Source: Spizellomyces punctatus DAOM BR117
Lineage: Eukaryota
Length of the DNA stretch: 64,000 nucleotides
Direction: 5' to 3' (one strand)
Assembly: GCA_000182565.2 (NCBI GenBank)
Contig: KQ257457.1
In this document: one piece after another, positions 28,059-47,218 of the stretch
How positions within the stretch are numbered: the first letter of the stretch is position 1
How the letters are laid out: each line of letters opens with the position of its first letter
The notes under the pieces: generated by a model
Databases searched by the model: none
Told to the model about the DNA's origin: nothing
Seen by the model: only the letters and a program-made list of their open reading frames with translations
Made by a program: the position numbers and the translations under genes

Positions 28059-29440
28059 ATAATGGCTAATTGCGTGGTGTATAAATTGGTATTGTGCGTC
28101 TTCAAAGTATGCTGTAAAAATTGTAAAATGAAAGACTCGGACAGTGGTTACACTTCACCGTCCAACTTGAATTGAAGATTAAGAAAGATATCACTATATC
28201 ATGAACCACCTGTTGTAGCCAGCATTCAGCGAGCTTGTTTTAAACCCGTGCTCGTAACCTGAAGATCTTCAGCGAGGACTCTGATGATTACTTTCACTTT
28301 AAAAGGACACAGCAACAGCACTTTAGCTGACTGCGAAACTGAATACTACGGTGCACAGACGGTAAAACAGTGCACCACTATCGGCCAGCGGAATTATGGA
28401 TTTGGAAAGGCAAAACCACCAAAGAAAATCTCTAGAGTGTGATCGGAATCGGGCCATGAAGAAGATGCGTCAGCAGGCATACTGGAAAACAATGAGTTCG
28501 GCGGCCAGTTTTCACAGAGGAAGCCCATCAGAGAAGAATGGAACAGCCATCAAAGGAGACGAGCTCAACACGGCCTAAAGATTATGGAGAACGTAAAAGC
28601 CGACGATGGAAGGTCGATATCTGGTTGCAGATGGCCAGAGATTATTACCTGTTCTGCAGGTTCTGCAAGCGTCCGACCCCTGCCAATCACACAGTTTGCA
28701 CCAACGAGTATTTCTGAAAAGCGGGAGTTCGATGTCTGCGAACTATGGCACTATAGGCAAACACTGGCTCTGTCCGTCGTGTCAGCAAATTCTCACTTAA
28801 ATAAGGTGAGATTGGATATCGTCTGAAGTACACTATCTCATATGAGCTTGTGTGGGCACTCAATTTGACGAATAATTATACAGAATATGTGAATGTGAAT
28901 ATTGAAAATTGCCATTCAAGGTTGTTACTTTTTGTGCGATATGTCAAGCTAACGAGACTGTCGTTCTACAGTGGCATTTTTCGGACAAATATTTGCGACA
29001 ACGTTCTGAGTTTCCGCTCTTGTACAGATGGATGAATATATCGAGCTTGAGCTTCGAAAGCGATACGAAACTTAAGAAAGTATAAGTGGCTGGAGCGTCT
29101 GGCAGCCTAACCACCTCGGGCCATGCTATGCACCCGTCTGATCAAGGCACGATTGCACCCGACACTAAAATGCATCATGGTGACCCCTTCTATTGAACAC
29201 TTAAAAGTTTCCGGGAAGGAAAACGCCAGGTGAAAATGCTTGTACAAAATACTCAACAGCTTTCCATAAACTGGGAAAATTACAGAAAATGGTCTGAGAA
29301 CATCCGTTATATAATTCAGAGATATAACCAAAAAGACTGTCGATATACTCGCTAACATTGCTTGCAGGTTTAGGACCAATCCGCGTAGCTAAGCACTTGT
29401 TTGGGAGACAGCACGCAAAAAGGCCTATAACTCCTACATA

Positions 29441-29468
29441 GTGCGGAGCCGGTGGGTATTGGCACTAG
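29441..29468 (+). repeat. Left TIR of Fanzor element
   Basis: GTGCGGAGCCGGTGGGTATTGGCACTAG, the exact reverse complement of 47174-47201; preceded by CATA (29437-29440). Confidence 0.97.
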
Positions 29469-29662
29469 TACAGTGATTCCAACCAATTGAATCATAATTT
29501 TACTCGATTTAGACTCATGAACTATGATTTGATAATGGTTCGATGCACAAACGATGCTCCACCATTAAAAATGGGTCCAATATGTGCGGCAATGAACGGA
29601 TTGAATATTCTGCAGTTGCTCCACCATTGAAAAACGGGTCCAATGTGCAGTTGTCATATCTC

Positions 29663-29670
29663 TATATAAA
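29663..29670 (+). promoter_or_regulatory. Putative TATA box of Fanzor gene
   Basis: TATATAAA ~110 bp upstream of ATG 29779, followed by a pyrimidine-rich leader. Confidence 0.45.
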
Positions 29671-29778
29671 CCCGCCTTCTCTGCCCATTTCCCAGGTTTT
29701 CATCATTCTCTGCCGATAGGCTTTCATCATTCTCTGCCCATTTTCCAGGCTTTCATCCATTTTTCTATTCCAATCATC

Positions 29779-31146
29779 ATGCTGCCAAAGAAAAAGCAAA
29801 AGCTTGAAAAACCTACTTGCTTACATACCTGTAACAAGACTTCCTTTGCAAAAGCTTTCTTGCCAAACGAGATCTATCGCCAATGGCTTCTAGATTACAT
29901 CGCCATCATCCATCAACTCGCCGACCATGCTTCCCACGCTCTCAAATTCTACATCCTATCTGCACCAACCTTCACCATGAACGAGGAGACCATCGAAGCA
30001 ATTCTCTATCTTCTCAACAAGGGGGAGGCTTGGCATCCAAGAAAGGAAGCAAAGAAGGCATGGCGGGATTGTTTGCTGCCATATGTTCAACGGTACTGCC
30101 AAATCATCAGCTTCGTTCACCCAAATCTATGAGGTGAGCAGCAATCAGTCAATTACCTGACAGCGAGTATGATGGCGAACCTGAAAGTCAACGTTCAAGA
30201 GCATTTCATGCAGATGCTCCTTCAGTATATCAATCTGCGGCTCGATGTGAAGGGACAGAAGCAGCGACTGCCACCGAAAAGCGATGCACGAAAGGCTTTC
30301 TTTGCTTGGCTACGCTACATGAAGTCAATTTTCCTTTTTGATATCATGCCCGAGTCGCTTGATGACTTGACTGCTGAAGAGAATGAACTTCTAGAAGAGA
30401 TTTGGTCCCTTAACATTCCCCTTTCTGATGACCAGCCACTCGCATATTCCGTTGCTGTAGACCCTCTCGCATTCTTTCCTGCATACTGCAAACTCTCTGG
30501 GCTGTATGAACGACATGGCTTCCGTCGGTTCAGTGCCATTCCACTACGTCAATCCCTCATCCAAAGCCATGTGCGGATCGACACCATCATCCTCTACTCT
30601 CACCTTCTTTGCATCACGCGACGAGAAGCGGAAACTGTTGAAAAGGTCGATTTATGGTTGCGCGTCTGTAATCTGCGGAACAAGGCTTTTAGATCTCGTC
30701 GTGGAATGTGTTTTGAAGGCTCGATCACCACGGATGGAACCTCGGTGTCTGTATACCTAAAGCACCCAGAAGCAGCAGACAAGTATGGAAAGCGCGGAGT
30801 GAGAAAGTCAGCAAAGAGTTTAGAGGACGAAGTTAAAGCGCAATACATGGAGAAAAACTTACCTGCTTGTCGAGCAGCAGAGAATGTTGTCGTTATCGAC
30901 CCAAACAAGCGCGATCTTCTCTACTGCCAAGACAGCCTTGGTACTACATTCCGTTACACCGCAAACCAGCGAGCCATGGAGACAGGTAGCCGCCGAATTG
31001 CAAGGGAGTGGGAAGCAATGAAAGCCGGCGGTATTGACCTCATAGAATCACGAATACCATCTCACAAGACGATGAACCTCATGGACTTTACTCGCTACCT
31101 TCTTGTTTGCCGCGCTGATTGGGATCATCGCAAGGAGTTCTACTCC
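29779..31146 (+). pseudogene. Fanzor1 (TnpB-like RNA-guided nuclease), 5' part
   Basis: NLS-like PKKKQK. ORFs 29779-30132 and 30169+ are in the same frame, separated only by TGA at 30130-30132. Contains GSITTDGTSVSV and RuvC-I VVIDPN (Asp codon 30898-30900). Closely resembles SpuFz1 as recalled. Interrupted at EFYS| by an LTR. Confidence 0.95.
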
Positions 31147-31718
31147 TGTAGCGAACGACTCTGATAAACCGGTTCGCTCAAAGGCATCAGGTGACCACGA
31201 TTGAGGTTTCCGCAATTGTAACCTAAGCTTCGAAACCCCTAAGATCAAACTCGGTTCTGGGCTACACCAGCGCAGCATGAAGGATACATTATGCAGCCAT
31301 GATCGATCATGGCGATGGTCCGAGATGGGAAGATTGGACGCCGCCACCCTAATGAAGGCTATGGAAACTAGTGTAGATGTTACCGTAGCATATTCTTGTA
31401 TAAAAAGAGGAATTCAATAAAATAAGTCAGTGGCCAGAAGCCGTAGCGACAAAAAATCCCCACAACTAGCTTCTCAACCCCAATCCTAGGTTAACAGGAA
31501 CCTAACAGAGCGCTTCAATGGCCTGATCACCTGCACTGAAGCCTCTAAATCCTGCTCGGTTCACAACTAACCGACTCTCCTTGCCTCTCGCCCTCAAGTT
31601 GCTACTGACGCCCAAAGAAAGGATTTGGAGACTACGATTCCTAGTACGGACACCCACACAACCTGCTAGGAGACCCAAGTTGTCTTTACCGTAGTCTACC
31701 AACAAAAAATCCATTACA
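31147..31718 (+). repeat. 5' LTR of element A
   Basis: TGTAGCGAAC...CCATTACA; collinear with 46030-46601. Confidence 0.96.
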
Positions 31719-31872
31719 TGGTGGAGAAGCGCGATGAACTGCCTTCCCCTCTCAAATTCAGCTGAAAACCTTATTCGGTCATACCGAAACTCTTGCGCAA
31801 ACCGAGATCCGCTCAGGTAGCTACTCGGAAACCTTTTCTCTCGTTTCAGAAACAGACTTCACGAAACCGAGA

Positions 31873-34800
31873 ATGATGCTGGTCGAACGCTCTCCAACGC
31901 GAGGCCGCTCACCTGTGATCCAGACTCGTAGTCAGGGTCCTGCGGAGGACATCGAAGTCCCTCCTGCAACACGCCCAAGGCATTCAGGGACCACTTCTGT
32001 CGAACCGGAAGCCCCTAACTTGGCCACGATGGCCTCTGAAGTGGCAGCGTTAAAAGAAGACATTGCCAGCTCGACTGCTGCAATGCAGTTGGCAACTCAA
32101 AATCTTACGGAACAGCTTCATAGGCTTTCCGAACATCAGACAGTGGTGGATGAGCACCTCGCACGAGCCTTAGAAGCCCTAGCGCATCGCCCGCTGCCTG
32201 AACAACCTCTCATAGCACGAGCTACAAGAGAATGGTCCGCAACCCCGTGGGAAACGTCGCACACACCAAGGGAGTGTACCGAACCAAGTTTTTCAGGTCC
32301 AGTGCCTCCAATCCAAGTGCCAGCGGCCCCGTGGGCCAGCGACACCAAGGTCGATTCCTTGAAAGCAAAGGACGTACCCAAGTTTACAGGCAAAAGAAAC
32401 CAAGACATTGAAGAATGGCTCAACAAAGTCCAACTTCTTCAAAACGTTAGCGCAACGTCAGATGCCAGGATGGTACAGCTCCTACCAGCCATGATAGCCG
32501 AGAAAACCCCTGCCGATGCTTGGTTTTACACTCTGGAAGCCCAGGAAACTTGCTCGTGGACCTGGAAAAGGTGGAAAGAAGAACTGCTTCGAGAGTTCCG
32601 AGATCCCCTAACCGAGTCCAAGTGCAAAACCGAATATGTGCACTGCCACGTGAACCCCAAAGAATTTTGCAGCTTTCTCGCATTCATTGACCACAAAACT
32701 CATCTCCAGCGCCTCGCATACGGCGACCGGGCAAACATAGAATGTCCCGCTGACCAGCATTTTGACCTAATAGTTGAACAATTGCCCAGCGACATCCAAA
32801 TCATGGTCAAATCCTGTAACGTCACGAACCTGACCAAATTAAAAGACTTCCTGCGCCTTTATTTTGGCTCTGATGACACCAGAAAATGAGACCCTTGCTA
32901 CAGCGGTGCTGCTGAAGCTCAGAAGAAGTCACAAAAGACCGGAACTGACAAAGGCCCTAAGCAGATGGCTCAACATAAAACCGGAAACCCCGAAAAGGGT
33001 TGCGACGGTCCTCAGAAGATGGTTCCGGACCCCAACAAGGAACCACCAACACCCTGCAAATTCTGTCAGAAAAAGCATTGGAATGTTTTCTGCTGGCAGA
33101 ACCCGAACCGAAAAGATCCTGAAGATGGAAAGAAAGGACCATACAGAGCACCCACGCCCGCAGGTTGGAAACCCAAACAGGAGTCCAAGAAGTCTTACAT
33201 AGTGGAGCTGGACTCGATGTCCGCTACCACCGAGACTCTTTTTTTGGCTTCGGAACTGGAAAGGACAGCTGCCGCTAATCAAGGATTCCACACCATTGGA
33301 TTCTTTCATTCACCCAAGCACTTGGAATCAACAATTTTGATGACCGCACCTCTTTCCGAGGTCATGGAGACTAAGGAAGAGGACCCCCGCATGCCCATGC
33401 AGGGCTGGGACCAAGTCTGGAACAACATAGCCATCATCTGGGGCACCCTGCAAGTGGCTCTGATGATGGGCAACAACCCCCGCGCGCTCAGCTTCTTTGC
33501 CAAAGAACTGAAGCAAGGCGCCGGGCACCTCGGGAACGACCCCTACGCAGTCGCGTGGAGTTCCCACCACCTCTACATTGCTGCCGCAGCCGAAGCTGAC
33601 AAGGATCGAATCCTGCGAAAAGTCCGAGAAGATGGTACCCCTCATTTGATCCTCCTTGCCTGGATAAGGCTCGATGAGCATGAGAAATTCTTGATGTGGA
33701 GCTCCGAAGATCCTGTTATCTTTGATTCTTACACCAACCTGCAACTGGTGGCATTTCTCCTGACAGGCAATATCATTCGCTCAGACTATTATTATCATCG
33801 CAGAAACCCCAAATTTCTGCACATTAAAGACCATCCACGTCTCCAAAGACACGAAGAGAGTGAATGGACGCGTATAGTCATGCTGGCTATCGAACAAGTT
33901 GCTCGCCAGAATAAAACAACAAAACCACAAAACAACAAATCTAGAGAGCACTTTGAGAGTGCGATCAAGGCTATGGAAGCAACAATTAACGACATTGCGC
34001 CCCATTTCGAGGTCGCGGTGCCTTCCATCAACGCCTTCTACTTGGTAGATTTAGGCAATGTACTCAAAAGCCAGACCAAGACCCAAACGCAGCCTTGCTG
34101 GATGCTAGCCATCATCGCTCAGCTCTGGGCACCTGTGGTACTAGACACAGGAGCCTGCGAGTCTCTGGTTTCTGACACATACCAGGGCCTTCTGTTCTCC
34201 GAAACCAATTTGCAGGATGCAGAAACGATGGCTTTCAAAGGCATTGGTGGATGTATCTCATCTACCAAGACAGTATGCCTCGAAACTTCCCTCAGAGGCC
34301 GCGGAGGAGAATACCTGACTTTCCGCGCCTATTTCCGAGTCATTGCATATGGGAAACCTCTCATCATCCTAGCCAACAATGTTCTGGGACATTTGAAACT
34401 CCAAACCTTGGTTCAGGAACCCCCGTTACCCAGTTTCATGGTGATGCTCAAGAATCCGGACATCCTTATCCCTTGCTCCATAACAGATGAGCTGGACACT
34501 GATCACATGCGCGGCACGCCATACAAGACCAAGCAGGGTGAATTCATGAAGGATGTGTCAATGCCACAGCTGACCAAAGCCAAAGCTCAGAAGTCTAGAT
34601 TAACCATGTTAATCACGGGACAGACGCGTGTGGCAGCCCAAACTTTTCTCATCGAAAACCCTCTTGAGGCCACCGCTGCTAGCTCAACGGCCCTGTTAGG
34701 CCTCAAACTGTCCACCGCGACCCATAATTCGGTTGCGGACCCCGAAGAGAACATTTCCAAAGAAGAATGGCAGACACTTCGGAACAAATGGAACCTTGAC

Positions 34801-37800
34801 TCTACGGAGAGGGCTCCAGGGGCCTTCAAAGCCCAATTAAAAGACACGGAACATTTCCACGTCAATCTCAAGCAACCCAAACCCGTGGTCTGGGCCCTAA
34901 TCAACATTCTACGACACTTCCATCAAGCCTTCAGCTATGAGGGTCATCTCATAGGGAACTACACCAAGATTCCTTATGCACCTCGATTTATCTCGGCTCC
35001 GCCACCCCTTTCGAGGCCACGGTCGTACTCTCCGTTGGAGCGGACAGCCCTTGAGACGGAGCGAGACACCATGATGGGGCTTCAGAGGTGGAAACGAACC
35101 ACCAAAGTAACCTTCGCCAGCGATCCTGTTATCATTCGCTATGCAGACAAACCCCCGCGGGTAGCCTTCGACTATCGCCGAGCCAATGACTGCATGGCCT
35201 GGGACCCATATCCCTTTCCCATCATGCTCGACATCCTGAACTGGATCGTTGCAGTCCCATTCCGATACATATCGGGAGGTGACGCAAACAAAGGATTTTA
35301 CCAAATCGCCATCACCGATGCATCGGTACGCAAATGGCTCGTGATCAGACTCCATGACGGCATCTACGAACCACTCTTTATGCCCTTCGGACCCAAGACT
35401 GCCCCTTCGCACTTCTGTCAGGTGATGGACGACACCTTGGGTCCCTCCAAATGGTGAAATATCAACAACTTTGTCGATGATATCCACACACGAGCGGAGA
35501 CAGCCGCGGAAGCCCTAGATGCCATCGCGGACTGGCTCAACTGCTTTTCCAGAGCCAAACTCACCCTAAGACTCGACAAGTGTCAATGGCTCTTTCACCA
35601 GCTCACGGCTCTCGGTTTCGTTGCCTCCTCTCAGGGTCTCGCTACCGATCCAGACAAGGTCGCAACCATAGTCGATTGGCCACGACCCAAATTCATAGGT
35701 GACCTATGGTCCTTTGTGGGTCTCCTAGGGTTCTACGCCCAATTCATCCCCCGCTACGCGGAACTCGTCCGACCCCTGCAAGACACTATCCAAGAGGGCG
35801 TTCGCGAATACTGAGACCTTAAAAAGGGTCGCGCTGACCCAAAGAAAGGTGCTGAAAAGCTCAATTCACCATCCATGCTCGACACGGCGGTGGCCCCTAC
35901 AATCACAGCCACTGGAGCCCGATTTGAGGTTTCGCAACATCCGAAATCTAGCTCCTCAGACCTACCGGCAGTCAATCTATGCCAATCATCGTTGGCGGAC
36001 TTGCCCATTGACCCCTTTTGTGTCAGATGCCTTGCTCGCAAGCGCCCCGACCAAGGTCTGCGCAGATTTATCGCGAAGCGTGAAGTTTCATGGACCGATT
36101 CCCGAAACTCTGCCTTTGCAGCTGCCAAGCAGGCTCTGACAACAGCTCCAGTGCTTGTGGCACCCAGAAAAGGGTTCCCCTACACCCTTCACAGTGACGC
36201 TTCCTACACAGCATTTAATGTCACGCTCAAACAGTTACAGCCAGATGCTTCTAAACGCCCACTGTGCTACCATTCCCGAGGCACCACCACCTCGGAAAAG
36301 AAGGCCCCCCCCCGTCAAACTCAAGGCCGGATGCCTCATTTGGGGCCTCGGAAAACTCCGCCCATACCTCGAAGGCCTGCCTTTCACGGTCATTACCGAT
36401 CACCGAGCTCTTTTGTGGCTCGCTAAATACAAAGGCGAGAACCGTAAGCTTCTCCGCTGGGCCCTCGATCTTAGTTACTGGTCCGAATGGATGACAATCA
36501 TTCACAAACCAGGACGTTTTCACATTGTCGCTGATACACTTTCACGGCTACTAGGAGCGGAAACCCTCCTCTGCTCCACCGCGACCCAAATATGGGTGGC
36601 GGAACACGGAAGACGACGGCTGCGCACCACACCAGCGGCTCTCGCACCTTCCTCAACACTGGCAGATGCCGCCTTCCGTCTGGCATTACAGCCTGCACTC
36701 ATTGCCGCCATCCGTGCTGGCCTCACCGGCCAGCTCCACCCCATAGCCCAACAGGCCTGCACGCTCCTATGGGAGACCAGCCCCAACACCTACACTACAG
36801 CCGACGCGCGCTTTCTTCAGGACTGGCAACGTGCAGATAACCTGCTGTGGCACCATTTTTCAGTCTCCGAAGACCTTTGGCGCCTCTACGTGCCCCCTGC
36901 TTGCACCCCCAAGGTGCGCAAGCTTTTTCACGAGGGGGGAGGACACTTCAGATTCGAAAGAACCTATGCCAGAGCCGCAGCGCAAGTCTGGTGGCCAAAG
37001 ATGGCACAAGATTTCAGAAAACACTGCGCAGGATGTGAAATCTGTCAACACTCAAAAAGGGTACCGCAACTGATTCCGGGGTTGCTGAAACCCATACCAC
37101 CAGCTCCGGGACACTGGACAGTCATCACGACTGACTTTGTAACCAAGCTCCCACTTACTTCCAGAGGGTACGACGCCTTTTGGCTAATAGCATGTAAATG
37201 CTCAAAGAGGATCCATGTATGGCCCCTCAAGAGCACCGCGACAGCTATTCAGGTCGCGGAACTCTTTATAGAATGCTATGTCCCATTGCACGGCATTCCA
37301 GAGACTATTATCTCGGACCGCGACCCCAAGTTTACGAGTCAATTTTGGCAGGAGGTCTGCAAAAACCTAAAGATTAATCAAGAGCTCACCACAGCCTACC
37401 ACCCTCAAGGTGATGGACAATCAGAGAGAGACAACGCAACGGTCTTGCAGGTCCTTACCACAGTGGTCAACACCCAATTAGACGACTGGGACACCTTTCT
37501 TCCGGTTGCGGAATTCATTATCAACGATACGGTACACGAGGCGACAAAAATGACGCGATTCAGAATGGACCTAGGCTATGAGCCCCACAATCCACTGGCG
37601 GATATTGTCAAAAGGCCATCAGAAACCAGAAATGCAGATGCGGAAGAGCTCTGTAAACACCTCGGTGACCTAAACATCCTTATCCAAGATCTGATGATCG
37701 AAGCCCAGGATTCGCAGAAAAGATATTATGATTTATCGCGACGACATTTGGAGTTCCGGAGAGGAGATAAGGTGCTTCTGAGCACAAAAAACCTAGCAGG

Positions 37801-38087
37801 GTATGAGTCCAAGATCGCTCCGAAATGGCTGGGACCAGTCACAGTGACTGACTGTAACCCTCTCCGTGACAACTACAAGTTAAAACTGCCAGACAAGATG
37901 AGACGACTTCATCCATGGTTTCACATATTGAAATTACATCCGTACCAGAAGCCTGTCGACGCCAAAACTGAGGAAAAGGTCGCGGAAGCACAAGCGGAGG
38001 ATTCCGATGCTTCAGAGGGCGAGTTTGAAGTGGAAGTGATAGTAGACCATCGAACCAGGTGCGGAAAATGTCAATTTCGAATACATT
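31873..38087 (+). pseudogene. gag-pol of element A (premature stops and one frameshift)
   Basis: One frame broken by TGA at 32887, 35455 and 35812 and by a shift at the C9 run 36305-36313. Gag VPKFTG..DIEEWL, protease VLDTGA, RT FDYRRAN...MPFG...FVDD, RNase H DAS...ITDH, integrase HHCC/TDFV/ISDRD/GQSE, start of chromodomain EFEVEVIVDH. Confidence 0.92.
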
Positions 38088-38641
38088 TGTGACAGAATTC
38101 TTCTGTCAGTGCTATGGTTATACTGGTTAGATGTGGTTCCAAACTAGTGGTCACATGACTTTGCTGATGGTGTCAGCATTCATTTGACCAGAATTAGATA
38201 AATAAGCAGATTTAGCCATTTCTGGCTAAATTAGATGAGTATCCTGACACACTAGCATCTGCCCCTTTTAATCAAGTGGCACAGTGTATTTAGGATGACT
38301 TCTCTCACTTGTGATTGGCCATAAATGGTGCAATAGGCTGACAAATAGTTTAGGATGACATGTACAAGATCTGATTGGTTGCAAATGGTGCAATAGGCTG
38401 ACAAATAGTTTAGGATGACATGTATGAGTTCTGATTGGTTGCAAATGGTGCAATAGGCTGACAAATAGTTTAGGATGACATGTATGAGTTCTGATTGGGT
38501 AGTTAGGATATAGCATTTGTCAGCCCCTTTTGTCTATAAAAAGAGGACCTCTCTGAGGCCCCTCAAAGGAAAAAAATAACAAGTAGTAACCAAGTCTTCC
38601 CTAGTTTTCTGTTGTCTTCTTGTCCCTGCTAGCCTGTTACA
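38088..38641 (+). repeat. 5' LTR of element B (contains ~3.5 copies of a 60-bp tandem repeat at ~38289-38500)
   Basis: Appears identical to 44149-44702; the unit tttaggatgacatgta...caaatggtgcaataggctgacaaatag recurs with period 60. Confidence 0.96.
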
Positions 38642-39048
38642 TGGTAGCACCACCTTAGACAACAACCCCAGACTCTTAGACCTTCTGTGAGAGATCAGAA
38701 GCTAAGATCCCCAGACCCCCAGACCCTGCCCTAGACCTTCTGAGTAATATCAGAAGACCAACAGACCCCAGACCCCAGACCCTGCCCTAGTCCTTCTGAG
38801 TAATATCAGAAGACCCCTGCCTCTTATCCCAGGCCCAACTTATGCCCAGAACCCCCCCTCAAGGACTCCTACAGACCAGCCCACACCACCCCATACCACA
38901 AACCTACCCCCAGCACAACCTCCAGAACTACCACCAGACACACCACTTGGTTAGCATCAGAAGCTCTGATAAAACAGATAGAGCTTTTCTATTGTGGGAT
39001 TGTGAAGAAGCTGTAGTGTCCCCCTGTATCCTCCCCACCAGTTGTACT

Positions 39049-39235
39049 TGCAAGTAACATTGCATAGTTTGGGCCTGTGACCCACCCTGTCTTGACTGCA
39101 AGTAACATTGCATCTCTTGGGCCTGTGACCCACCCTATCTTGACTGCAAGTAACATTGCATCTCTTGGGCCTGTGACCCACCCTATCTTGACTGCAAGTA
39201 ACATTGCATCTCTTGGGCCTGTGACCCACCCTATT
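39049..39235 (+). repeat. 48-bp tandem repeat x4 in leader of element B
   Basis: tgcaagtaacattgcatctcttgggcctgtgacccaccctatcttgac at 39049, 39097, 39145 and 39193. Confidence 0.93.
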
Positions 39236-39288
39236 GTTATTGTTACAAGTTATATTGTAACTACCCAAGACTCCATCCCATTACCACC

Positions 39289-40200
39289 ATGGCCAGCCAG
39301 GAAGAGATTCTCTTCAACACCATTGCTGAGCTTGACATAGACCAGGTCAGGCAGGAGCTTTATCAAGCAAAGCTCCAGCAGCTGAACTCCACCACACCAG
39401 CCCCTGCTCAGTACCAACCCAGAGTAGATAAATCCCTGGTAAAAGTCCTCCAAAGCAAGTTGAAGCCCTACAAAGGCAACAGGAATGTCGAAGAGATTAG
39501 GACATACCTCCTCAGACTTGAAGAGTACTTCCAGGCAGCTGCAGATCTATCACCAGAAGGCCAACTGTTAGTAGCCACCACCTACTTGGAACTCCATGCT
39601 GAAGTCTGGTGGCAAAGCCATGTCAAGAACCACCCAGTAGGATCCCCTCTCAGAATCCAGTCTTGGGACCAGTTCAAGAGAGCCCTTCAAGAGAACTTCC
39701 TCCCAGCAAATGCCACCAGAGCAGCAAGAGACCAGTTGGCCAGGCTCAAACAACAAGGCTCAGTAAAAGAGTACCTAAACCAGTTCAATACTTTATGCCT
39801 TCAGGTGGATGACTTGTCAGAAGCTGAAAAGTTAGACAAGTTTATCAGAGGGCTTAAACCCAGGGTTCAGGAACAACTGGAGCTCAACCCCACCAGTACC
39901 ATCAACTTAGCCACAGCTGCAGCAACAGCTGATAGGATTGACCAGATCCAGTTCAGCTACCAGAGAAGAAGCCAGGCCACCAGCTACTACTCCCCCAAGA
40001 CTGAGAACTCTGGAGTAGTCCCTATGGAGATAGATAGTATATCCACCAACTCTGGGAAGCCTCTCTCCAAACTCACTGAGGCTGAGAAGACTGAGCTCAG
40101 AAAGAAGGGAGCCTGTTTCAGGTGCAGAAAACCAGGCCATATTGCCCCCCTATGCCCCTTGAAGACCAAGCAGCAGGGAAATGGCAAGCAGACTCAGTAG
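39289..40200 (+). CDS. gag: Gag of element B
   Basis: Retrotransposon gag core (AEVWW...SWDQFKRAL...[10 protein letters not shown]) and CCHC knuckle [14 protein letters not shown]. Confidence 0.95.
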
Positions 40201-43200
40201 AAGATAGAGGTTCTGCCTCTACTGGGGAAGATATCAAGAACCACCACCCTGACACCCACCACCTGGTACACTCTCCTGTTATTCAACCCTTGGACCTATT
40301 GGACCCACCTGAAACCACCCCTGAGACTTTAACTATCCATGGACTTTACCTGGAACCCCAGAGAACCCCAGCATCCCAGAGAACCCCAGAAACCCAGAGA
40401 ATCCCAGAATCCCAGAGAACCCCAGAAACCCAGAAAATCCCAGGACCCCTGAGAACCCCAGAATCCCAGAGAACCCCAGAAACCCAGAGAACCCCAGAAC
40501 CCCAGAGAACCCCAGAAACCCAGAGAACCCCAGAACCCCAGAGAACCCTAGAACCCCAGAAAACCCAGGAACCCCAGAGAACCCCAGAACCCCAGACCAC
40601 CCAGGCCACCTACCAAGAAAGCAAGATCCATGTAGTAGAGGTGGCTCCATACTCTTTAAGTACCCCCAAAGGGCCAAGGATTCCCCAGAGTCACTTGCTG
40701 ACTGTGCAAGGTAGAATCCAAGGAATCCCAGTAACCATTCTCCTGGATAATGGGGCAAACCAACTCTATGTGTCACAGTCCTTTGTCAAGAAGGCACAAC
40801 TGGTGACTCATTCTCTCCCTGGAGCAGAAATCTCTATGGCTGATGACAGAAAGCACCAAGAAATAGGCTTTGTCAAAGGTCTTCAGTACTCAGTAGGAAC
40901 CTACACAGAACAGTCAGACTTTATAGTAGCCCCAATCAAGTTTGACTTGATCTTGGGTATACCTTGGTTTGCCTGGAGGAATCCCAGTATCAACTACAAC
41001 AAGAACACTGTGACCTTCACCACTTCCCAGTACCCCAGAGTCAGATGGTTTGTTAAGCAGGCCAGCTCTTCCAACAAATCCCAGAAGTCCAATCTTATCA
41101 CCATGGTATCAGCAAAGATGTTGGCCAGAACACTGAAGAAGAGGACAGCAACAGCTTTTGCTGTGTATCTCAAGAACCCTCAAGATACCAGCACCCCTCC
41201 AGACACCATGGATTCCAAAGTCACCAAGCTTCTTGAAAACTATCAAGATGTCTTTGCTGAAGAGCTTCCCCCAGGACTTCCCCCTGAGAGATCAGTAGAT
41301 CACAGAATTGAACTCAGTGACCCCAACCAGACCCCCTGGAGACCAACCTACCACCTCTCTTCTTTGGAGTTGGAAGAACTGAGGAAGCAGCTTTCAGAGC
41401 TTCTGGAGGCAGGCCACATCAGACCATCGAAGAGCCCATTTGGAGCACCTATCCTCTTTGTTAAGAAGAAAGAAGGTTCTTTGAGGATGTGTGTGGACTA
41501 CAGGGCTCTGAATAAAATCACCATCAAGAACAGATATCCCCTCCCTAGGATTGATGAGCTGATGGATAGGCTGAATGGAGCCCAGGTGTTTACCAAGCTA
41601 GATCTGAAGTCAGGCTATTACCAGATCAGAGTCCACCCAGAAGACATCCCCAAGACAGCCTTCAGAACCAGATATGGTCACTTTGAGTTCCTGGTCATGT
41701 CCTTTGGAATGACCAATGCCCCAGCCACTTTCATGACTTTGATGAATGATGTCCTTAGACCCTTCTTGGACATCTTTGTTATTGTCTACCTAGATGACAT
41801 CCTCATCTACTCCAAGACCCCAGAAGATCACCTGGACCACCTCAAGCAGGTTCTGCAAGCCCTCAGGCAGAACAAGCTGTATGCCAACCCCAGCAAGTGC
41901 CAGTTCTTCAAGCAAGAAGTAGAGTTTCTTGGCTATGTAGTCTCACATGAAGGAGTCAAGCTTGATCCCAAGAAAGTGCAGACTGTTCAAGAATGGCCCA
42001 CCCCTCAGAGTGTCACTGAAGTCAGACAGTTCATGGGCCTGGTGAACTACTTCCATAGCTTTCTGAAGGACCTGGCAGAGCAAGCTGCACCATTGACAGA
42101 CCTGTTGAGAAATGACAAGCCTTGGACCTGGTCTGAACCTCAGGAGAAAGCTTTTCAGCAGCTGAAGGATATGGTCACCAAAGCCCCTGTACTCAGACCC
42201 TTTGACCCAGCCTTGCCTACCACTGTCTTCCCTGATGCCTCAGGCTATGCAGTTGGTGCATGGCTTGGACAGGATGATGGGAAAGGCATGAGACCAGTTG
42301 CCTACCACTCCAGGAAGATGGCCCCAGCAGAGACCAGATATGACACCAGAGAACAAGAGCTGTTAGCCATCCATGATGCCCTCAGAGTTTGGAGGCCCTA
42401 CCTGCAAGGAACCCCCTTCAAAGTTATCTCAGACCACCAGTCCCTCAAGTGGCTACAGAACCAGCCCTTCTTGACCAGAAGACAAGCCAGATGGGTCATG
42501 AATTTCCAATCTTTTGACTTTGAGATTGGCTATGGCCCAGGAAGACTCCACACAGTGGCAGACATCCTGTCTAGAAGACCAGACCTGGCCCCAAGATGCA
42601 TCAAGTGCAAGGCCTTGGTGACAGCAGAGTTGAATGCTGTGACCCACACCACCAGCACCCTTCAAGAGAGATTGAAGACCAGTACCACAGAAGACCCAGA
42701 ACTTCAAGAGCTCATCCAAGCTTTGGATGACCCCAGGAGACCAGAAGACCAGCAACAAAGGCTCAAGTACCTCAGCCATCAAGATGGGTTACTCTATTTC
42801 CAGGACAGGATCTTTGTTCCTAGTGACCCAGACCTAAGGTTGAGCCTACTCCAAGAAACCCATGACACTCAGTATGCTGGACACTTTGGCATCACCAAGA
42901 CCCATGATGCCCTAGCAAGGCATTACTACTGGCCAAGGATGTACAAGGACATTAAGAAGTATGTCAAGTCTTGTGATTCCTGCCAGAGAAGCAAACCTAG
43001 TCAGCAACCACCAGCAGGCTTGCTGCAGCCCCTCCCAGTACCCAAGACCAGATGGAGCCAGATCTCCATTGACCTGATCCCTGACCTACCCATGACTTCC
43101 TCTGGTCACAATGCCATCTTTGTCATTGTTGACAGATTGTCAAAGAGAGGCCACTTCATCCCTACCACCACCAAAGCCTCAGCCAAGGACCTGGCCCTGC

Positions 43201-44132
43201 TCTTCTTGAAGCACATCTTCAAGCACCATGGCCTCCCAGAAGTGATTGTATCAGACAGAGACACCAAGTTCACCAGTTCATTCTGGTCCAACTTGATGCA
43301 ACTCTTAGGCTGCAACACCCTCCTAGCCACTGCAAGACACCAGCAGACCAATGGACAGGCAGAGAGAACCATCAAGACTTTGAAGATCTACCTGAGAGCT
43401 TTCCTGGAGTACAACATGAAGAATTGGGAAGATCTTCTCCCCTTTGCTGAGTTTGCCTACAACAACAGCATCTCAGAAACCACAGGCTTCACCCCATTCT
43501 ACTTGGAGAATGGCCAGCATCCCAGGACCCCAGCAACACCACCAGGAGAAAGCAATGATCCTGAAGCAACAGACTTCCACCAGTATATTCAGCAACTGCT
43601 TCAAGTAGCCAAGGATAACATGATACTGGCCCAAGAAAGACAAGTTCAGCAAGCCAACAAGTCTCTCAGCAAGGCCCCAAGCTACCCCCTAGGCTCCAAA
43701 GTTTGGCTGTCTAGAGAAGGTATCACCCCAGAAGAAGAAGCCCAGAGGCCAGCCCAGAAACTTCTTCACCCCTGGCTTGGACCTTACAGAATCAAGGCCA
43801 AGGATGAATTTCAGAATTACACCCTGGAGCTCCCCAGCACCATGAAGATTCATCCAGTGTTCCATGTGAGACTCCTCAAGCCTTACCTGGACCCCACAGA
43901 GGACTTCCCTACCAGACCAGTACCCCCTGAGCCTGAGCCAATTATCCAGCAAGGAGAAGAGTTTTGGGAAGTTGAGAAGATTCTGGACCACAAGATCAGA
44001 AGGAAGAAGAATCTCTACCTCATCAAGTGGAAAGGATATCCCTCCTCTCAGAACACCTGGGAACCAGAAGAAAACCTCCTACCCCATGGCAGAGAAATCT
44101 TGAAGGAGTTCCTAGCCCAGAAGGGAGCTTAA
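40122..44132 (+). CDS. pol: Pol of element B (PR-RT-RNaseH-IN-chromodomain), -1 frame relative to gag
   Basis: [39 protein letters not shown]...[19 protein letters not shown]...YLIKWKGY...NTWEPEENL; no stops. Confidence 0.97.
40351..40600 (+). repeat. 18-bp coding minisatellite (TP[E/A][T/P/S]QR)n at N-terminus of Pol B
   Basis: accccagaaacccagaga-like unit repeated ~13 times. Confidence 0.9.
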
Positions 44133-44148
44133 TCTTAAAGTGGGGGAG

Positions 44149-44702
44149 TGTGACAGAATTCTTCTGTCAGTGCTATGGTTATACTGGTTAGATGTGGTTC
44201 CAAACTAGTGGTCACATGACTTTGCTGATGGTGTCAGCATTCATTTGACCAGAATTAGATAAATAAGCAGATTTAGCCATTTCTGGCTAAATTAGATGAG
44301 TATCCTGACACACTAGCATCTGCCCCTTTTAATCAAGTGGCACAGTGTATTTAGGATGACTTCTCTCACTTGTGATTGGCCATAAATGGTGCAATAGGCT
44401 GACAAATAGTTTAGGATGACATGTACAAGATCTGATTGGTTGCAAATGGTGCAATAGGCTGACAAATAGTTTAGGATGACATGTATGAGTTCTGATTGGT
44501 TGCAAATGGTGCAATAGGCTGACAAATAGTTTAGGATGACATGTATGAGTTCTGATTGGGTAGTTAGGATATAGCATTTGTCAGCCCCTTTTGTCTATAA
44601 AAAGAGGACCTCTCTGAGGCCCCTCAAAGGAAAAAAATAACAAGTAGTAACCAAGTCTTCCCTAGTTTTCTGTTGTCTTCTTGTCCCTGCTAGCCTGTTA
44701 CA
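44149..44702 (+). repeat. 3' LTR of element B
   Basis: TGTGACAGAATT...CCTGTTACA, same length and sequence as the 5' LTR. Confidence 0.96.
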
Positions 44703-44706
44703 ACAT

Positions 44707-45972
44707 TGGTCAGGATACCCACCCCATGAGGATACCTGGGAACCAGAGGAAGCCCTAACAGAGGCTTCCGAAGCCTTAGAAGAGTACTGGAGATCCAGAG
44801 CCCCCACTAGCGCACTAGTAGAGGACTCTTTGGTAGTCAGCCTTGCAGGCAACGCCCCGGAAGATACGGCTTACGCTTCCGACCACCAATGCTTCGCGGT
44901 TTATCCGGATGATAGCTCACGTGATAATCACGCCCTCTCTCCAGAAAGAAAACCAGTTTCGCGTGGCTTACCTCACCAGTCGAGAACGCCACACCAAGCC
45001 TCCCGATCATGCTTACGCGCGTCCGAGCTGTCAAAATCAGCCGGCGACGACCTTAAAAGGGCGCCCCTGCTCGCCCCCCCTCTTTTTTCTTCTTCAACTA
45101 CCAACGAACTACTTCCCTTACACACTCACTCTGCTTCGCAAACCCTTTCTATCGACACCGAAACAAAAGCTTTCATTTCCAACACCATGACCACCGATAT
45201 CCGAGGACAACAAGGAGTCAGCATCCTCTCTACCCTTGAGGAAGGCTATCCCTGGTCAGAAGTAAGCGACGCCTTCACTGCCGAGAACTCTATCAAGCGG
45301 CTCGGAGCAGCCATGGCCACCTGGGTCGAAGTTTGGATTCGTGAGTTGTACGAAGACCCAAACAAAACCCTTGAACACTATCGTGGTGAAGATTGGGTGG
45401 TTGACAGGGCTTCAAAGCCTTACGCCACGAGCCAGCCCCTCATGATGCATATCGCGGAGCCCTACAGTAGGGCTTCCGACAGCGGTCAAGCTGCTGTCGG
45501 TATCGTCGCCAATGCAAAAAAGATAGGCAAGAGATTACGGGACGTACCCTGCGCTGCCTGGCTTGATGCTGGGGTCCCTCAACATGCGGCCGGAAACCCC
45601 AAAACGGCCTGCTTCACCCTCTGGCCCGATCACGAGGCCCACGATTTCGCGGACATAGCCATCGAAGCCGCGAGAGCAGTGTTGTTAAAGCTAGCCAATG
45701 CAGCTGAAACCACAGAAGAGCAGCTCCGTCCCAAACATCGGGAGCACGCCTATTACCACTTTCGAGTGGTTAACTTGAAAAGGGCCGCAGAGACGTTCAC
45801 AGCCCTCTACGTAACCCGAGCCAACGGTTCCAGGACACCTGGAACCCCGGCTCCGGAAGCCACTGACCAAATTTGGTTCTGCGCGAACGTCATGGGGCGC
45901 GCTACCATAATCTGGACGATCAACGAAGACAGCCTTGAAGCTGACGACGACTATCCAGTTGCGTCATGGTAG
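44707..45972 (+). pseudogene. 3' remainder of element A pol: second half of chromodomain plus long unknown extension or extra ORF
   Basis: Rejoining across the TSD gives FRIH/WSGYPPHEDTWEPEEAL. The frame stays open to 45972, with an internal ACCATG at 45187. Confidence 0.85.
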
Positions 45973-46029
45973 AAGCGAGGTTCAGGCACTCACAGACGAG
46001 TCGCCGAACCTTCTTTTTCGAAGGGGGGA

Positions 46030-46601
46030 TGTAGCGAATGACTCTGATAAACCGGTTCGCTCAAAGGCATCAGGTGACCACGATTGAGGTTTCTGCAATT
46101 GTAACCTAAGCTTCGAAACCCCTAAGATCAAACTCGGTTCTGGGCTACACCAGCGCAGCGTGAAGGATACGTTACGCAGCCATGATCGATCATGGCGATG
46201 GTCCGAGATGGGAAGATCAGACGCCGCCACCCTAATGAAGGCTACGGAAACTAGTGTAGACGTTACCATAGCATATTCTTGTATAAAAAGAGGAATTCAA
46301 TAAAATAAGTTGGCAGCCAGAAGCCGTAGTGACAAAAAATCCCCACAACTAGCTTCTCAACCCCAATCCTAGGTTAACAGGAACCTAACAGAGCGCTTCA
46401 ACGGCCTGATCACCCGCACTGAAGCCTCTAAATCCTGCTCGGTTCACAACTAACTGACTCTCCTTGCCTCTTGCCCTCAAGTCACTACCGATGCCCAAAG
46501 AAAGGATTTGGAGACTACGATTCCTAGTACGGACACCCACACAACCTGCTAGGAGACCCAAGTTGTCTTTACCATAGTCTACCAACAAAAAATCCGTTAC
46601 A
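46030..46601 (+). repeat. 3' LTR of element A
   Basis: TGTAGCGAAT...CCGTTACA, 572 bp, ~25 transitions versus the 5' LTR. Confidence 0.96.
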
Positions 46602-46605
46602 CTCC

Positions 46606-47115
46606 CATCCTGCTCATACTCGATGGAAATGGCACTCTTTCATCAATCGGCAGCAAAGCGAATCAGACCTCATAAGTAACATGCACAACAAGTATGGTGA
46701 AAACTTTACTGTTGTGATGGGTGATTGGAGTGACGCTGGTCGAACTGCGAGATTTCAGACCTCATCAAAGACAATAGGCTGGTGCACTGTCTTCAAGCAG
46801 AACAGGATCAACTGCTTCCTTCTCGACGAGTACAAGACCTCATCTGTCTGCCCTCACTGTTCATCCGATGACTTCCTTGAAAAAAGCTTCAAAACACGAC
46901 CTCATTCAAGACCTTGGCGACGACGAGAAGGCAAGATTGAAAAAGTCCATGGATTGCTGGGTTGTACCAACCCTAACTGTCAGCAAGCCTGGACGATGCG
47001 CTACTGGAATCGAGATACGCTGAGCACCTGCAATATGCTGATAATCGTGCAATCAATGTTGGATGGACACAGTAGACCAGAAGTGTTCAGCAGGAGTGTT
47101 CCAGCCGTAGCTTAG
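46606..47115 (+). pseudogene. Fanzor1, 3' part (RuvC-II, Zn finger, RuvC-III)
   Basis: Continues in frame as HPAHTRWKWHSFINRQ; VVMGDWS, LLDEYKTS (Glu 46828-46830), CPHC...CTNPNC, WNRD (Asp 47014-47016), stop 47113-47115. Confidence 0.95.
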
Positions 47116-47129
47116 ATTGGTTAGATTAG

Positions 47130-47218
47130 GTTTTCCGAGCCGGTTGTCGCCGGTTCAATCCCTGGTGCGGGTGCTAGTGCCAATACCCACCGGCTCCGCA
47201 CTACCTTTCCTGGACTTG
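47130..47218 (+). ncRNA. Fanzor omegaRNA (scaffold ~47130-47203 plus ~15-nt flanking guide)
   Basis: Lies between the Fanzor stop and the right end. GAGCCGGT (47137-47144) can pair with ACCGGCTC (47189-47196), GTGCGG (47165-47170) with CCGCAC (47196-47201), and GGGTG with TACCC. Position matches known TnpB/Fanzor omegaRNAs; ends are inferred. Confidence 0.85.
47174..47201 (-). repeat. Right TIR of Fanzor element
   Basis: CTAGTGCCAATACCCACCGGCTCCGCAC followed by TA. Confidence 0.97.

What the first reader, a model, noticed from the sequence alone, without database searches (positions are those of the whole stretch)
29437..47218. Complete Fanzor locus (eukaryotic RNA-guided nuclease, omegaRNA and TIR transposon) split across 17.8 kb
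Seen: removing element A and one CTCC copy rejoins ...EFYS|HPAHT... into a 625-codon reading frame (29779-31146 plus 46606-47115). It has an NLS-like start, the RuvC triad D(VVIDPN)/E(LLDEYK)/D(WNRD) and a CxxC...CxxxxC Zn finger. It is enclosed by 28-bp TIRs with TA duplication, and a structured non-coding stretch lies between the stop and the right end. Established: this is the architecture of TnpB/Fanzor (OMEGA) systems related to Cas12, and from memory it is very close to Spizellomyces punctatus Fz1. Inference: this copy is dead (stop plus insertion), but its catalytic residues, ends and RNA scaffold are intact. ORF-level annotation would miss it because it appears as three unrelated short ORFs.
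Basis: partly seen in the sequence, partly recalled or inferred. Interest (0 to 1): 0.95.

Follow-up and report, generated by a model that had tools for sequence, protein, structure and literature searches.

The report
Dead SpuFz1 Fanzor transposon copy

Summary
33-nt inverted repeats (29439-29471 / 47171-47203) enclose two coding pieces. Piece 29779-31146 aligns to residues 1-466 of SpuFz1 and piece 46606-47115 to residues 467-638, so they abut exactly. SpuFz1 is the solved Fanzor1 of Spizellomyces punctatus (PDB 8GKH). All metal-binding, zinc-finger and TAM-reading residues are kept. The 74 nt before the right end fold like the published omegaRNA scaffold.

The copy is dead. TGA at 30130 replaces Arg126, and a 15,455-bp insert with a CTCC duplication splits codons 456 and 457. 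The insert is a Ty3/gypsy element (31147-46601) that carries a second one (38088-44702).

The kind is already in print. Bao and Jurka 2013 described SPu-1 with 33-bp TIRs and a putative TA duplication. Saito et al. 2023 reported 42 Fz loci, 134 ghost loci, and loci with Gypsy/Ty3 inserted in the Fz gene.

Corrections: the TIR is 33 nt (30 perfect), not 28; the locus is not "complete"; part of it is already held as a called protein.

Side finding: the inner retrotransposon has almost no CpG, and every LTR difference of the outer one lies at a CpG.

The parts
29437..29438 (+). CA dinucleotide just outside the left inverted repeat; with the following TA it spells CATA, the published SpuFz1 TAM
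   Evidence: Sequence. Saito 2023 section 7 reports a conserved CA upstream of the 5' IR and passages give the TAM as 5'-CATA.
29439..29471 (+). Left terminal inverted repeat (33 nt, the first 30 perfect)
29472..29778 (+). 5' non-coding part of the element, with about 3 copies of a 24-nt tandem repeat at 29677-29757
29779..31146 (+). Fanzor1 coding piece 1, codons 1-456 (SpuFz1 residues 1-466). In-frame TGA at 30130-30132 stands where SpuFz1 has Arg126. Holds D383/N385.
31143..31146 (.). CTCC, left copy of the target-site duplication of the outer LTR element
31147..46601 (+). Outer Ty3/gypsy LTR retrotransposon (15,455 bp including its own insert). LTRs 31147-31718 and 46030-46601 are 572 bp each and differ at 25 bases. 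Ends are TG..CA, with a TGG primer-binding-like start after the 5' LTR and a purine tract before the 3' LTR. The coding region is broken into several frames.
38088..44702 (+). Inner Ty3/gypsy chromovirus (6,615 bp) inserted in the chromodomain coding part of the outer element. LTRs 38088-38641 and 44149-44702 are 554/554 identical. ACATT duplication at 38083-38087 and 44703-44707. Open gag frame 39202-40200 and pol frame 40095-44132. Only 2 CpG.
46602..46605 (.). CTCC, right copy of the target-site duplication
46606..47115 (+). Fanzor1 coding piece 2, 169 codons plus TAG (SpuFz1 residues 467-638). Holds E541, D606 and the CCCC zinc finger.
47130..47203 (+). omegaRNA scaffold (74 nt): UUCC, stem-loop 1 (47137-47156), a linker, then a long stem 2 with an 8-nt loop whose 3' strand is the right inverted repeat
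   Evidence: Fold. Bases fit the nucleotide numbers named in Saito 2023 if one base is missing after 47150; that variant with an extra G is seen in other copies (table 4). Stem-loop 1 covaries in relatives.
47171..47203 (-). Right terminal inverted repeat
   Evidence: Other copies in two public runs diverge right after 47203 (table 7).
47204..47218 (+). Flanking 15 nt that would be read out as the guide of this copy's omegaRNA
   Evidence: Inferred from Saito 2023 (guide 14-15 nt beyond the scaffold). The 15-mer is unique in the window.

Best explanation
The locus is a decayed copy of SPu-1, the prototype Fanzor1 transposon of Spizellomyces punctatus, whose protein is SpuFz1.

How an intact copy works (published): the element is about 2.1 kb. 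Between 30-33-nt inverted repeats it holds one gene for a TnpB-like nuclease with a RuvC active site and a zinc finger. Just after the stop codon it encodes a 75-nt omegaRNA scaffold that ends at the right repeat and reads 14-15 nt into the flank as guide. The protein-RNA complex cuts double-stranded DNA that carries 5'-CATA next to a match to the guide.

What this copy shows: CA (flank) plus TA (first two bases) spell CATA at the left junction, and the right flank supplies the guide. I infer that an empty copy of this site (CATA + CCTTTCCTGGACTTG) would be the natural target, as in TnpB homing. The filled site escapes because ACTA, not CATA, precedes the guide match.

History of this copy (order inferred): SPu-1 inserted between a CCDC39-like gene and a spliced downstream gene. 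A Ty3/gypsy element then landed in codon 456/457, making a CTCC duplication. A second chromovirus landed in the first one's chromodomain, making an ACATT duplication. Codon 118 became TGA.

The protein can no longer be made. The ends, the CA, the scaffold and the guide are untouched, so the locus could at most still give a guide RNA for the intact paralogues, like the published 'ghost' loci.
For: Protein identity:
- Both pieces hit 8gkh_P (SpuFz1) at E 1.9e-249 and 1.1e-103 and abut at chain residues 860/861.
- Blastp gives 80.3% and 89.0% identity to P0011 residues 1-466 and 467-638. In the multiple alignment it is 85.2% over 622 residues.

Key residues, with residue names taken from passages of PMC10432273:
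- D383, N385, E541, D606 are kept.
- C548, C551, C586, C591 are kept.
- TAM readers R96, Q129, Q130, N133, R291, Y345 are kept.

Organism: of the 63 homologues, most of the best-scoring rows are named S. punctatus DAOM BR117.

Ends: the TIR is.

RNA:
- The two-stem fold has z -3.3.
- Stem-loop 1 is 87% paired in 5 sequences, with 5 of 7 pairs changed on both sides; 4 of 500 shuffles reached the covariation score.
- A metagenome relative folds alike, z -4.2.

Insert: LTRs, duplications and TG..CA ends are.

Other copies (table 7):
- Contigs run straight through the join, with loose ends at 46601 and 46606 that continue with Fz coding sequence like 31117-31146.
- Contigs diverge after 47203.

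Literature:
- SPu-1: about 2,100 bp, 33-bp TIRs, putative TA duplication, 17 full copies (PMC3627910 passages).
- 42 Fz loci, 134 ghost loci, and 11 loci with extra genes including Gypsy/Ty3 in the Fz gene (PMC10432273 section 7).
Against: - No whole genome is held for this window. The organism therefore rests on protein names and an equal contig length, not on a direct look-up.
- I could not check whether this locus is one of the 42 published loci, because supplements are closed.
- No listed contig bridges the LTR/Fz junction at 46601/46602, or the right end with 31 letters on both sides, for this very locus (table 8). The insertion therefore rests on the assembly plus its clean duplications.
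- Pfam gave no significant hit to either piece: 0 families for the N piece, and Cas12f1-like TNB at only E 0.57 for the C piece.
- Four nucleic-acid-contact residues differ from SpuFz1: R268Q, R419E, R420W, K483Q. R268 is invariant in all 14 paralogues aligned.
- The net element is 2,306 bp against the published figure of about 2,100 bp.
- The exact TIR word found nothing in JGI metagenomes.
- The homing role is inferred. Saito 2023 states in its Discussion that the biological role of Fz is unknown and that no transposase lies within Spu-1.
Confidence: 0.95

Rival explanations
1. The locus is still a working guide-RNA gene. The protein gene is dead, but the omegaRNA is transcribed, perhaps by read-out from the same-strand 3' LTR 500 bp upstream. 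Intact SpuFz1 paralogues would load it in trans, so the locus behaves like a published 'ghost' locus.
For: - Scaffold, right repeat, CA/TA and guide are intact.
- Saito 2023 shows that ghost omegaRNAs work with SpuFz1 and suggests action in trans.
- Both LTR elements point the same way as Fz.
- In run X6, summed word depth at 47122-47172 is about 22,000, against 11 on the neighbouring gene (table 2). One X6 contig carries a 66-nt GT..AG skip, so the run probably holds RNA.
Against: - That depth sums all copies at least 90% alike and cannot be assigned to this locus.
- No listed X6 contig crosses 47203/47204 with this locus's flank (table 8).
- X6 depth on the LTR at 46000-46560 is about 0.
- Contigs cannot show the starts, ends or levels of an RNA.
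Confidence: 0.3
2. The split is an assembly artefact: repeats were stitched wrongly, and the real locus is an intact SPu-1 copy.
For: No listed contig of the four runs bridges 46601/46602 for this locus (table 8). LTR elements are multi-copy and hard to assemble.
Against: - The insert has matched LTRs and a perfect 4-bp duplication, and removing it restores the frame to the residue.
- The inner element likewise has its own 5-bp duplication.
- Chance misjoins would not give these.
- Saito 2023 reports Ty3 inside Fz genes in this genome.
Confidence: 0.03
3. The copy belongs to a different, not yet described Fanzor family or species and only resembles SpuFz1.
For: - It is no more than 88% identical to any listed paralogue.
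- It has a longer 5' region, giving 2,306 bp.
Against: - Saito 2023 gives about 82% identity among SpuFz1 proteins of one genome, and this copy lies within that range (76.5-88.3% to 14 paralogues).
- Relatives from other named genera (Clydaea, Gaertneriomyces, Fimicolochytrium) are at 27-58%; a Spizellomyces sp. 'palustris' row is 74%.
Confidence: 0.02

Closest known systems
SpuFz1 (SPPG_07727, 638 aa; PDB 8GKH) and its SPu-1 element in Spizellomyces punctatus DAOM BR117
   Same: - Collinear over the whole protein, about 85% identical.
- Same RuvC residues, zinc finger and TAM-reading residues.
- Same 30-33-nt repeats with CA upstream.
- Same position and two-stem shape of the omegaRNA scaffold.

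   Different: - Gene broken by TGA at Arg126 and by a 15.5-kb nested LTR insert.
- 10 of 309 otherwise invariant columns are changed, against 1.0-2.9% in the four full-length paralogues P0011, P0006, P0009 and P0010.
- Contact residues R268Q and K483Q are private to this copy.
- The scaffold is one base shorter, by my count from the paper's numbering.
- The element is about 200 bp longer at the 5' side.
Ghost Spu-1 elements (Saito et al. 2023)
   Same: An omegaRNA-bearing right end and repeats without a working Fz gene. If transcribed, this locus would act in the same way.
   Different: - Ghosts are elements of about 550 nt whose repeats differ at seven positions and whose stem 2 has a 3-nt bulge.
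- This copy has the Fz-type repeat and an 8-nt stem-2 loop, and it lost its gene by mutation, not deletion.
Parasitella parasitica Fanzor 1 (PDB 9CF0)
   Same: Both pieces align (E 7.5e-21 and 6.4e-21) with the same order of motifs.
   Different: A distant relative: a much longer protein with low identity.
ISDra2 TnpB / OMEGA systems (IS200/IS605)
   Same: - A RuvC plus zinc-finger nuclease.
- Guide RNA encoded at the right end, reading into the flank.
- TAM at the left junction.
- Presumed cutting of the empty site.
(Saito 2023 Discussion)
   Different: - SPu-1 has inverted repeats and a possible TA duplication, and no TnpA.
- Per Saito 2023, its omegaRNA lacks the pseudoknot.
- The Pfam TnpB-type models do not reach significance here.
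Ty3/gypsy chromoviruses (the insert)
   Same: - LTRs with TG..CA ends and 4-5-bp duplications.
- Gag, protease, RT, RNase H and integrase in order, with a C-terminal chromodomain.

   Different: The inner copy is almost free of CpG: 2 in 6,615 bp.

Membership tests
Fanzor1 / SPu-1 (SpuFz1) family | Full-length sequence similarity to SpuFz1 | tested here: met
   E 1.9e-249 and 1.1e-103 to 8gkh_P; the pieces cover residues 1-466 and 467-638.
Fanzor1 / SPu-1 (SpuFz1) family | RuvC metal-binding residues D383, N385, E541, D606 | tested here: met
   All four are present in the alignment with P0011. Residue names come from PMC10432273 passages.
Fanzor1 / SPu-1 (SpuFz1) family | CCCC zinc finger in the NUC domain | tested here: met
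   C548, C551, C586 and C591 are kept.
Fanzor1 / SPu-1 (SpuFz1) family | 30-33-nt terminal inverted repeats with CA upstream of the left one | tested here: met
   33 nt with 1 mismatch; CA at 29437-29438. Published description.
Fanzor1 / SPu-1 (SpuFz1) family | TA target-site duplication | tested here: inconclusive
   TA is terminal at both ends and in other copies' right ends. It cannot be told apart from the repeat itself without an empty site.
Fanzor1 / SPu-1 (SpuFz1) family | [quoted passage not shown] | tested here: met
   Fold. Bases agree with U5, C6, C7, U16, G17, G20, C32, C34, U35, G37, A72 and A75 of the paper if one base is missing after 47150. Stem-loop 1 covaries.
Fanzor1 / SPu-1 (SpuFz1) family | Single open reading frame (a working gene) | tested here: not met
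   TGA at 30130 and a 15,455-bp insert. This is a pseudogene member.
Fanzor1 / SPu-1 (SpuFz1) family | RNA-guided cleavage of double-stranded DNA next to CATA | not testable with these tools
   Shown for SpuFz1 in PMC10432273. Not testable for this copy.
TnpB / Cas12f-like (Pfam OrfB_Zn_ribbon, Cas12f1-like TNB) | A hit above Pfam's gathering score | tested here: not met
   PF07282 scored 10.8 bits against a cut-off of 26.3, E 0.57. The tie to TnpB is by structure and literature, not by this profile.
Ty3/gypsy chromovirus (insert) | LTR pair, TG..CA ends, target duplication, RT-RNase H-integrase order, chromodomain | tested here: met

The most novel reading that the evidence does not exclude
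The dead copy is a 'ghost in the making'. Its omegaRNA, with the guide CCTTTCCTGGACTTG, would still be made and loaded by intact SpuFz1 paralogues. It might even be driven by the retrotransposon LTR that now lies 500 bp upstream. In that case a retrotransposon insertion would have turned an autonomous Fanzor element into a guide-only locus. Together with the 567-bp mini-element seen in a metagenome relative (L008), this would show two natural routes from Fz elements to guide-only loci.
Probability: 0.25. Interest if true: 0.35.

Novelty: already known. Interest (0 to 1): 0.15.

Why it matters
For Fanzor biology it adds little. The element family, protein structure, guide RNA, TAM, copy census and Ty3-disrupted copies are all published. 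Its use is as a well-dissected example:
- exact coordinates of a nested-insertion pseudogene;
- a left junction that spells the CATA TAM;
- an untouched guide-RNA end that could be tested for expression in trans.

The side observations may deserve more attention than the finding itself. One retrotransposon has essentially no CpG. Its host retrotransposon shows LTR divergence made up wholly of CpG changes. These bear on how 5mC shapes transposons in an early-diverging fungus, and on dating by LTR identity.

Tried and rejected
- The first protein search used lengths 'longer' by mistake and found nothing. The 'near' search gave 63 relatives.
- Pfam on the two Fz pieces gave nothing significant, although the protein collection lists PF26935 for relatives. 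The local Pfam copy gave no such hit.
- Rfam on 46600-47500 gave only a sub-threshold SNORD35 match (22.5 bits against a gathering score of 36). I took it as chance.
- ARAGORN found no tRNA in the window. This rules out my passing idea that stem-loop 1 and the linker are tRNA-derived.
- The exact 20-nt TIR word found 0 hits in JGI metagenome contigs.
- Of the 8 metagenome loci, I searched 5 for inverted repeats and 7 with a script. Only L008 showed SPu-1-like ends. L002, L003, L005 and L006 have stops in frame and no clear repeats. L001, L004 and L007 are cut by contig ends. L003 is the same sequence as L002 and was left out of the stem-loop alignment.
- The bacterial promoter/terminator scan of 47000-47350 found nothing and does not apply to a eukaryote.
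- Read laying: no listed contig bridges this locus's own junctions. A part without cover is no finding. The high X6 depth cannot be assigned to this copy.
- Pfam on 10 neighbouring ORFs named only CCDC39-like exons.
- The search for relatives of the inner Pol found no close named relative, so horizontal transfer can be neither shown nor excluded.
- Structure prediction and complex prediction were not run. An 85% identical solved structure makes them needless.

Full report
**Observation**

The window holds two 33-nt arms, 29439-29471 and 47171-47203, that are 97% complementary. Their first 30 nt are identical and occur nowhere else in the 64 kb. No match was seen in 100 shuffles.

Inside them, 29779-31146 reads as 456 codons with a single in-frame TGA at 30130. 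46606-47112 reads as 169 codons ending in TAG at 47113-47115. Between the two pieces lie 15,455 bp with TG..CA ends, flanked by CTCC on both sides at 31143-31146 and 46602-46605. The repeat is longer than the 28 bp they gave.

**Identity of the protein**

Each piece was searched against the sequences of solved structures.
- The N piece matches chain P of 8GKH, the Spizellomyces punctatus Fanzor (a fusion with MBP), at residues 405-860, E 1.9e-249.
- The C piece matches residues 861-1032, E 1.1e-103.

The 638-aa protein P0011 (named SPPG_07727 of S. punctatus DAOM BR117 by its source) reads the same as the Fanzor part of the 8GKH alignment where the two are printed. The pieces cover its residues 1-466 (80.3% identity) and 467-638 (89.0%).

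I aligned the pieces with 14 paralogues, adding them as fragments. The window's copy keeps:
- the metal ligands D383, N385, E541 and D606;
- the zinc-finger cysteines C548, C551, C586 and C591;
- the TAM-reading residues R96, Q129, Q130, N133, R291 and Y345.

These residues are named in passages of Saito et al. 2023 (PMC10432273). The TGA stands where SpuFz1 and 11 of the 12 paralogues covering that column have Arg126.

Against the reading, four residues that the paper lists as nucleic-acid contacts differ: R268Q, R419E, R420W and K483Q. R268 is invariant in all 14 paralogues.

The copy has 10 private changes in 309 otherwise invariant columns (3.2%). The four full-length paralogues P0011, P0006, P0009 and P0010 have 1.0-2.9%. 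Three of the shorter gene models aligned have 4.4-6.4%. That is a mild excess, as expected of a copy no longer under selection.

**Organism**

No genome is held for the window. In the protein search, most of the best-scoring of the 63 relatives are named S. punctatus DAOM BR117. One row is the window's own 330-aa product (100% identical, no source name).

That product, P0016, runs from ATG 30172 into the LTR and ends ...EFYSCSERL. I infer that the window is from that genome. This is not a direct look-up.

**The RNA end**

Here 47130-47218 folds into stem-loop 1, a linker and a long stem 2 with an 8-nt loop. The energy is -34.4 kcal/mol, z -3.3, and 0 of 200 shuffles fold as well. The paper says the canonical scaffold has an 8-nt hairpin loop and the ghost type a 3-nt bulge.

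Counting from 47130, the bases agree with the nucleotides named in the paper (U5, C6, C7, U16, G17, G20, then C32, C34, U35, G37, A72, A75) if this copy lacks one base after 47150. This is my inference from the text. (table 4) shows one contig each in runs X1 and X6 with a G put in behind 47150, so both variants exist.

In five sequences (the window and four metagenome relatives, A2), stem-loop 1 is 87% paired. Five of 7 pairs have changes on both sides. Between 3 and 7 of 500 shuffles reach the observed measures, and slid registers score lower. Five sequences is a small sample, and the L002 row is misregistered by one or two columns.

**Ends and target logic**

- CA lies just outside the left repeat, as published. 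With the terminal TA it spells CATA, the TAM found for SpuFz1.
- The right flank CCTTTCCTGGACTTG is unique in the window.
- If TA is a target duplication (Bao and Jurka 2013 call it putative), the empty site would read CATA + that flank. That is exactly a TAM plus a guide match.
- The filled site has ACTA before the flank. The paper reports that changing any TAM base abolishes cutting.

This is the TnpB-like homing logic. It is inferred. Saito's Discussion (read whole) says the biological role of Fz is unknown and that no transposase lies in Spu-1. I did not see the CA + TA = CATA link stated in the parts I read. I did not search other papers for it and make no claim that it is new.

**Other copies**

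Four public runs were laid on 46000-47500.
- Contigs of other copies align from 46602 or 46606 onward. Upstream they carry loose ends that read like the Fz sequence at 31117-31146, so uninterrupted copies run straight across the join.
- Other contigs match up to 47201-47204 and then continue with different flanks (X6, X10). This puts the element's right end at 47203.
- No listed contig bridges this locus's own junctions.

The exact repeat word found nothing in JGI metagenomes.

A profile search there gave 8 loci at 40-59% identity.
- Most are decayed or cut.
- L008 carries a 567-bp mini-element (2849-3415). It has SPu-1-like ends (left junction CATAG|GTGCG, right end CGCACTA) and only the last 150 or so Fz codons.
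- Its 3' end folds into the same two-stem shape, z -4.2.

**The insert**

The outer element is 31147-46601.
- Its 572-bp LTRs differ at 25 bases.
- A TGG-led primer-binding-like site follows the 5' LTR, and a purine tract precedes the 3' LTR.
- It has RNase H and integrase domains at 36140-38092 and a chromodomain remnant at 44641-45972.
- Its upstream frames (31738-35814) gave no Pfam hit at E 0.001, and its coding region is split over several frames.

The inner element is 38088-44702.
- It sits in the outer element's chromodomain, with an ACATT duplication.
- Its 554-bp LTRs are identical.
- Gag is open, and so is a 1,345-codon pol carrying protease, RT, RNase H, integrase and chromodomain.

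Both elements lie on the same strand as Fz. [quoted passage not shown] This kind of locus is therefore already in print. Whether this very locus is on their list sits in supplements that I could not open.

**Verdict on the finding**

The thing itself is a known element in the genome where it was first described (Bao and Jurka 2013), later dissected biochemically and structurally (Saito et al. 2023). It is a pseudogene copy. I score it low for novelty and interest.

**Side observations**

- The inner chromovirus has 2 CpG in 6,615 bp (observed/expected 0.01). TpG is at 1.45 and CpA at 1.21. Every other 2-kb bin of the window lies at 0.68-1.10.
- In the outer element's LTR pair, all 25 differing bases are transitions. 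Seventeen are single CpG to TpG/CpA differences. The other eight form four TG-versus-CA dinucleotides, which is what an ancestral CpG gives when each LTR lost it on a different strand. No difference lies outside a CpG.
- Passages of PMC12695648 state that in Spizellomyces 5mC is confined to transposons.
- I infer methylation-driven CpG decay of the outer element. I also infer that the identical LTRs of the CpG-free inner element say little about its age.
- The best relative of the inner Pol is 67% identical (an unnamed contig). The rest of the best 120 are at 36-52%, among them green algae. No S. punctatus row appears in the best 120 of 5,850, and only 8,000 candidates were scored. Its origin therefore stays open.

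Noticed in passing
window 38088-44702: The inner Ty3/gypsy chromovirus has only 2 CpG in 6,615 bp (o/e 0.01; TpG 1.45, CpA 1.21). Its gag and pol frames are nevertheless open and its LTRs identical. The rest of the window has CpG o/e 0.68-1.10. It may be a lineage that has lost, or avoids, every methylatable CpG. The best protein relative is only 67% identical and unnamed.
   Followed up: partly
window 31147-31718 versus 46030-46601: All 25 differences between the outer element's LTRs are transitions at CpG sites: 17 single CpG-to-TpG/CpA changes and four TG/CA dinucleotide pairs. None lies at a non-CpG site. This fits 5mC deamination on transposons (PMC12695648 passages). It also means LTR-identity dating is biased by CpG content here.
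   Followed up: partly
L008 2849-3415 (metagenome contig): A 567-bp mini-element with SPu-1-like inverted repeats. It has CATAG at the left junction and CACTA at the right end, only the last 150 or so Fanzor codons (52% identical), and an omegaRNA-like two-stem 3' end. It looks like a deletion-derived guide-only element in a relative.
   Followed up: partly
window 47122-47172, run X6: Summed word depth is about 22,000 in the bin and 34,000 at 47150, against 11 on the neighbouring gene. Short contigs match only 47126-47167 (stem-loop 1 plus linker) with unlike sequence on both sides. This is probably the core shared by all Fz and ghost omegaRNA loci, possibly very abundant as RNA. It cannot be assigned to this locus.
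   Followed up: no
window 47377-47442: One contig of run X6 skips 66 nt with GT..AG ends, an intron of the + strand gene that starts about 120 bp downstream of the element (ATG at 47324). The run is labelled 'DNA?' but so probably holds cDNA. Pfam did not name the gene from the ORFs tried.
   Followed up: no
window 47258-47347 (-): Sub-threshold Rfam match to SNORD35 (22.5 bits against a gathering score of 36, E 0.022). Probably chance.
   Followed up: no
window 25777-27129 (+): Two ORFs match Pfam CCDC39 (E 1e-23 and 5e-41). They are exons of a flagellar coiled-coil gene upstream of the element.
   Followed up: no
window 40300-40640: A run of 18-nt (6-codon) repeats encodes [12 protein letters not shown]-like units near the start of the inner element's pol frame.
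   Followed up: no
window 38229-38558 and 44290-44619; 39049-39282: There are 60-nt tandem repeats inside both inner LTRs and a 48-nt tandem array just downstream of the 5' LTR.
   Followed up: no
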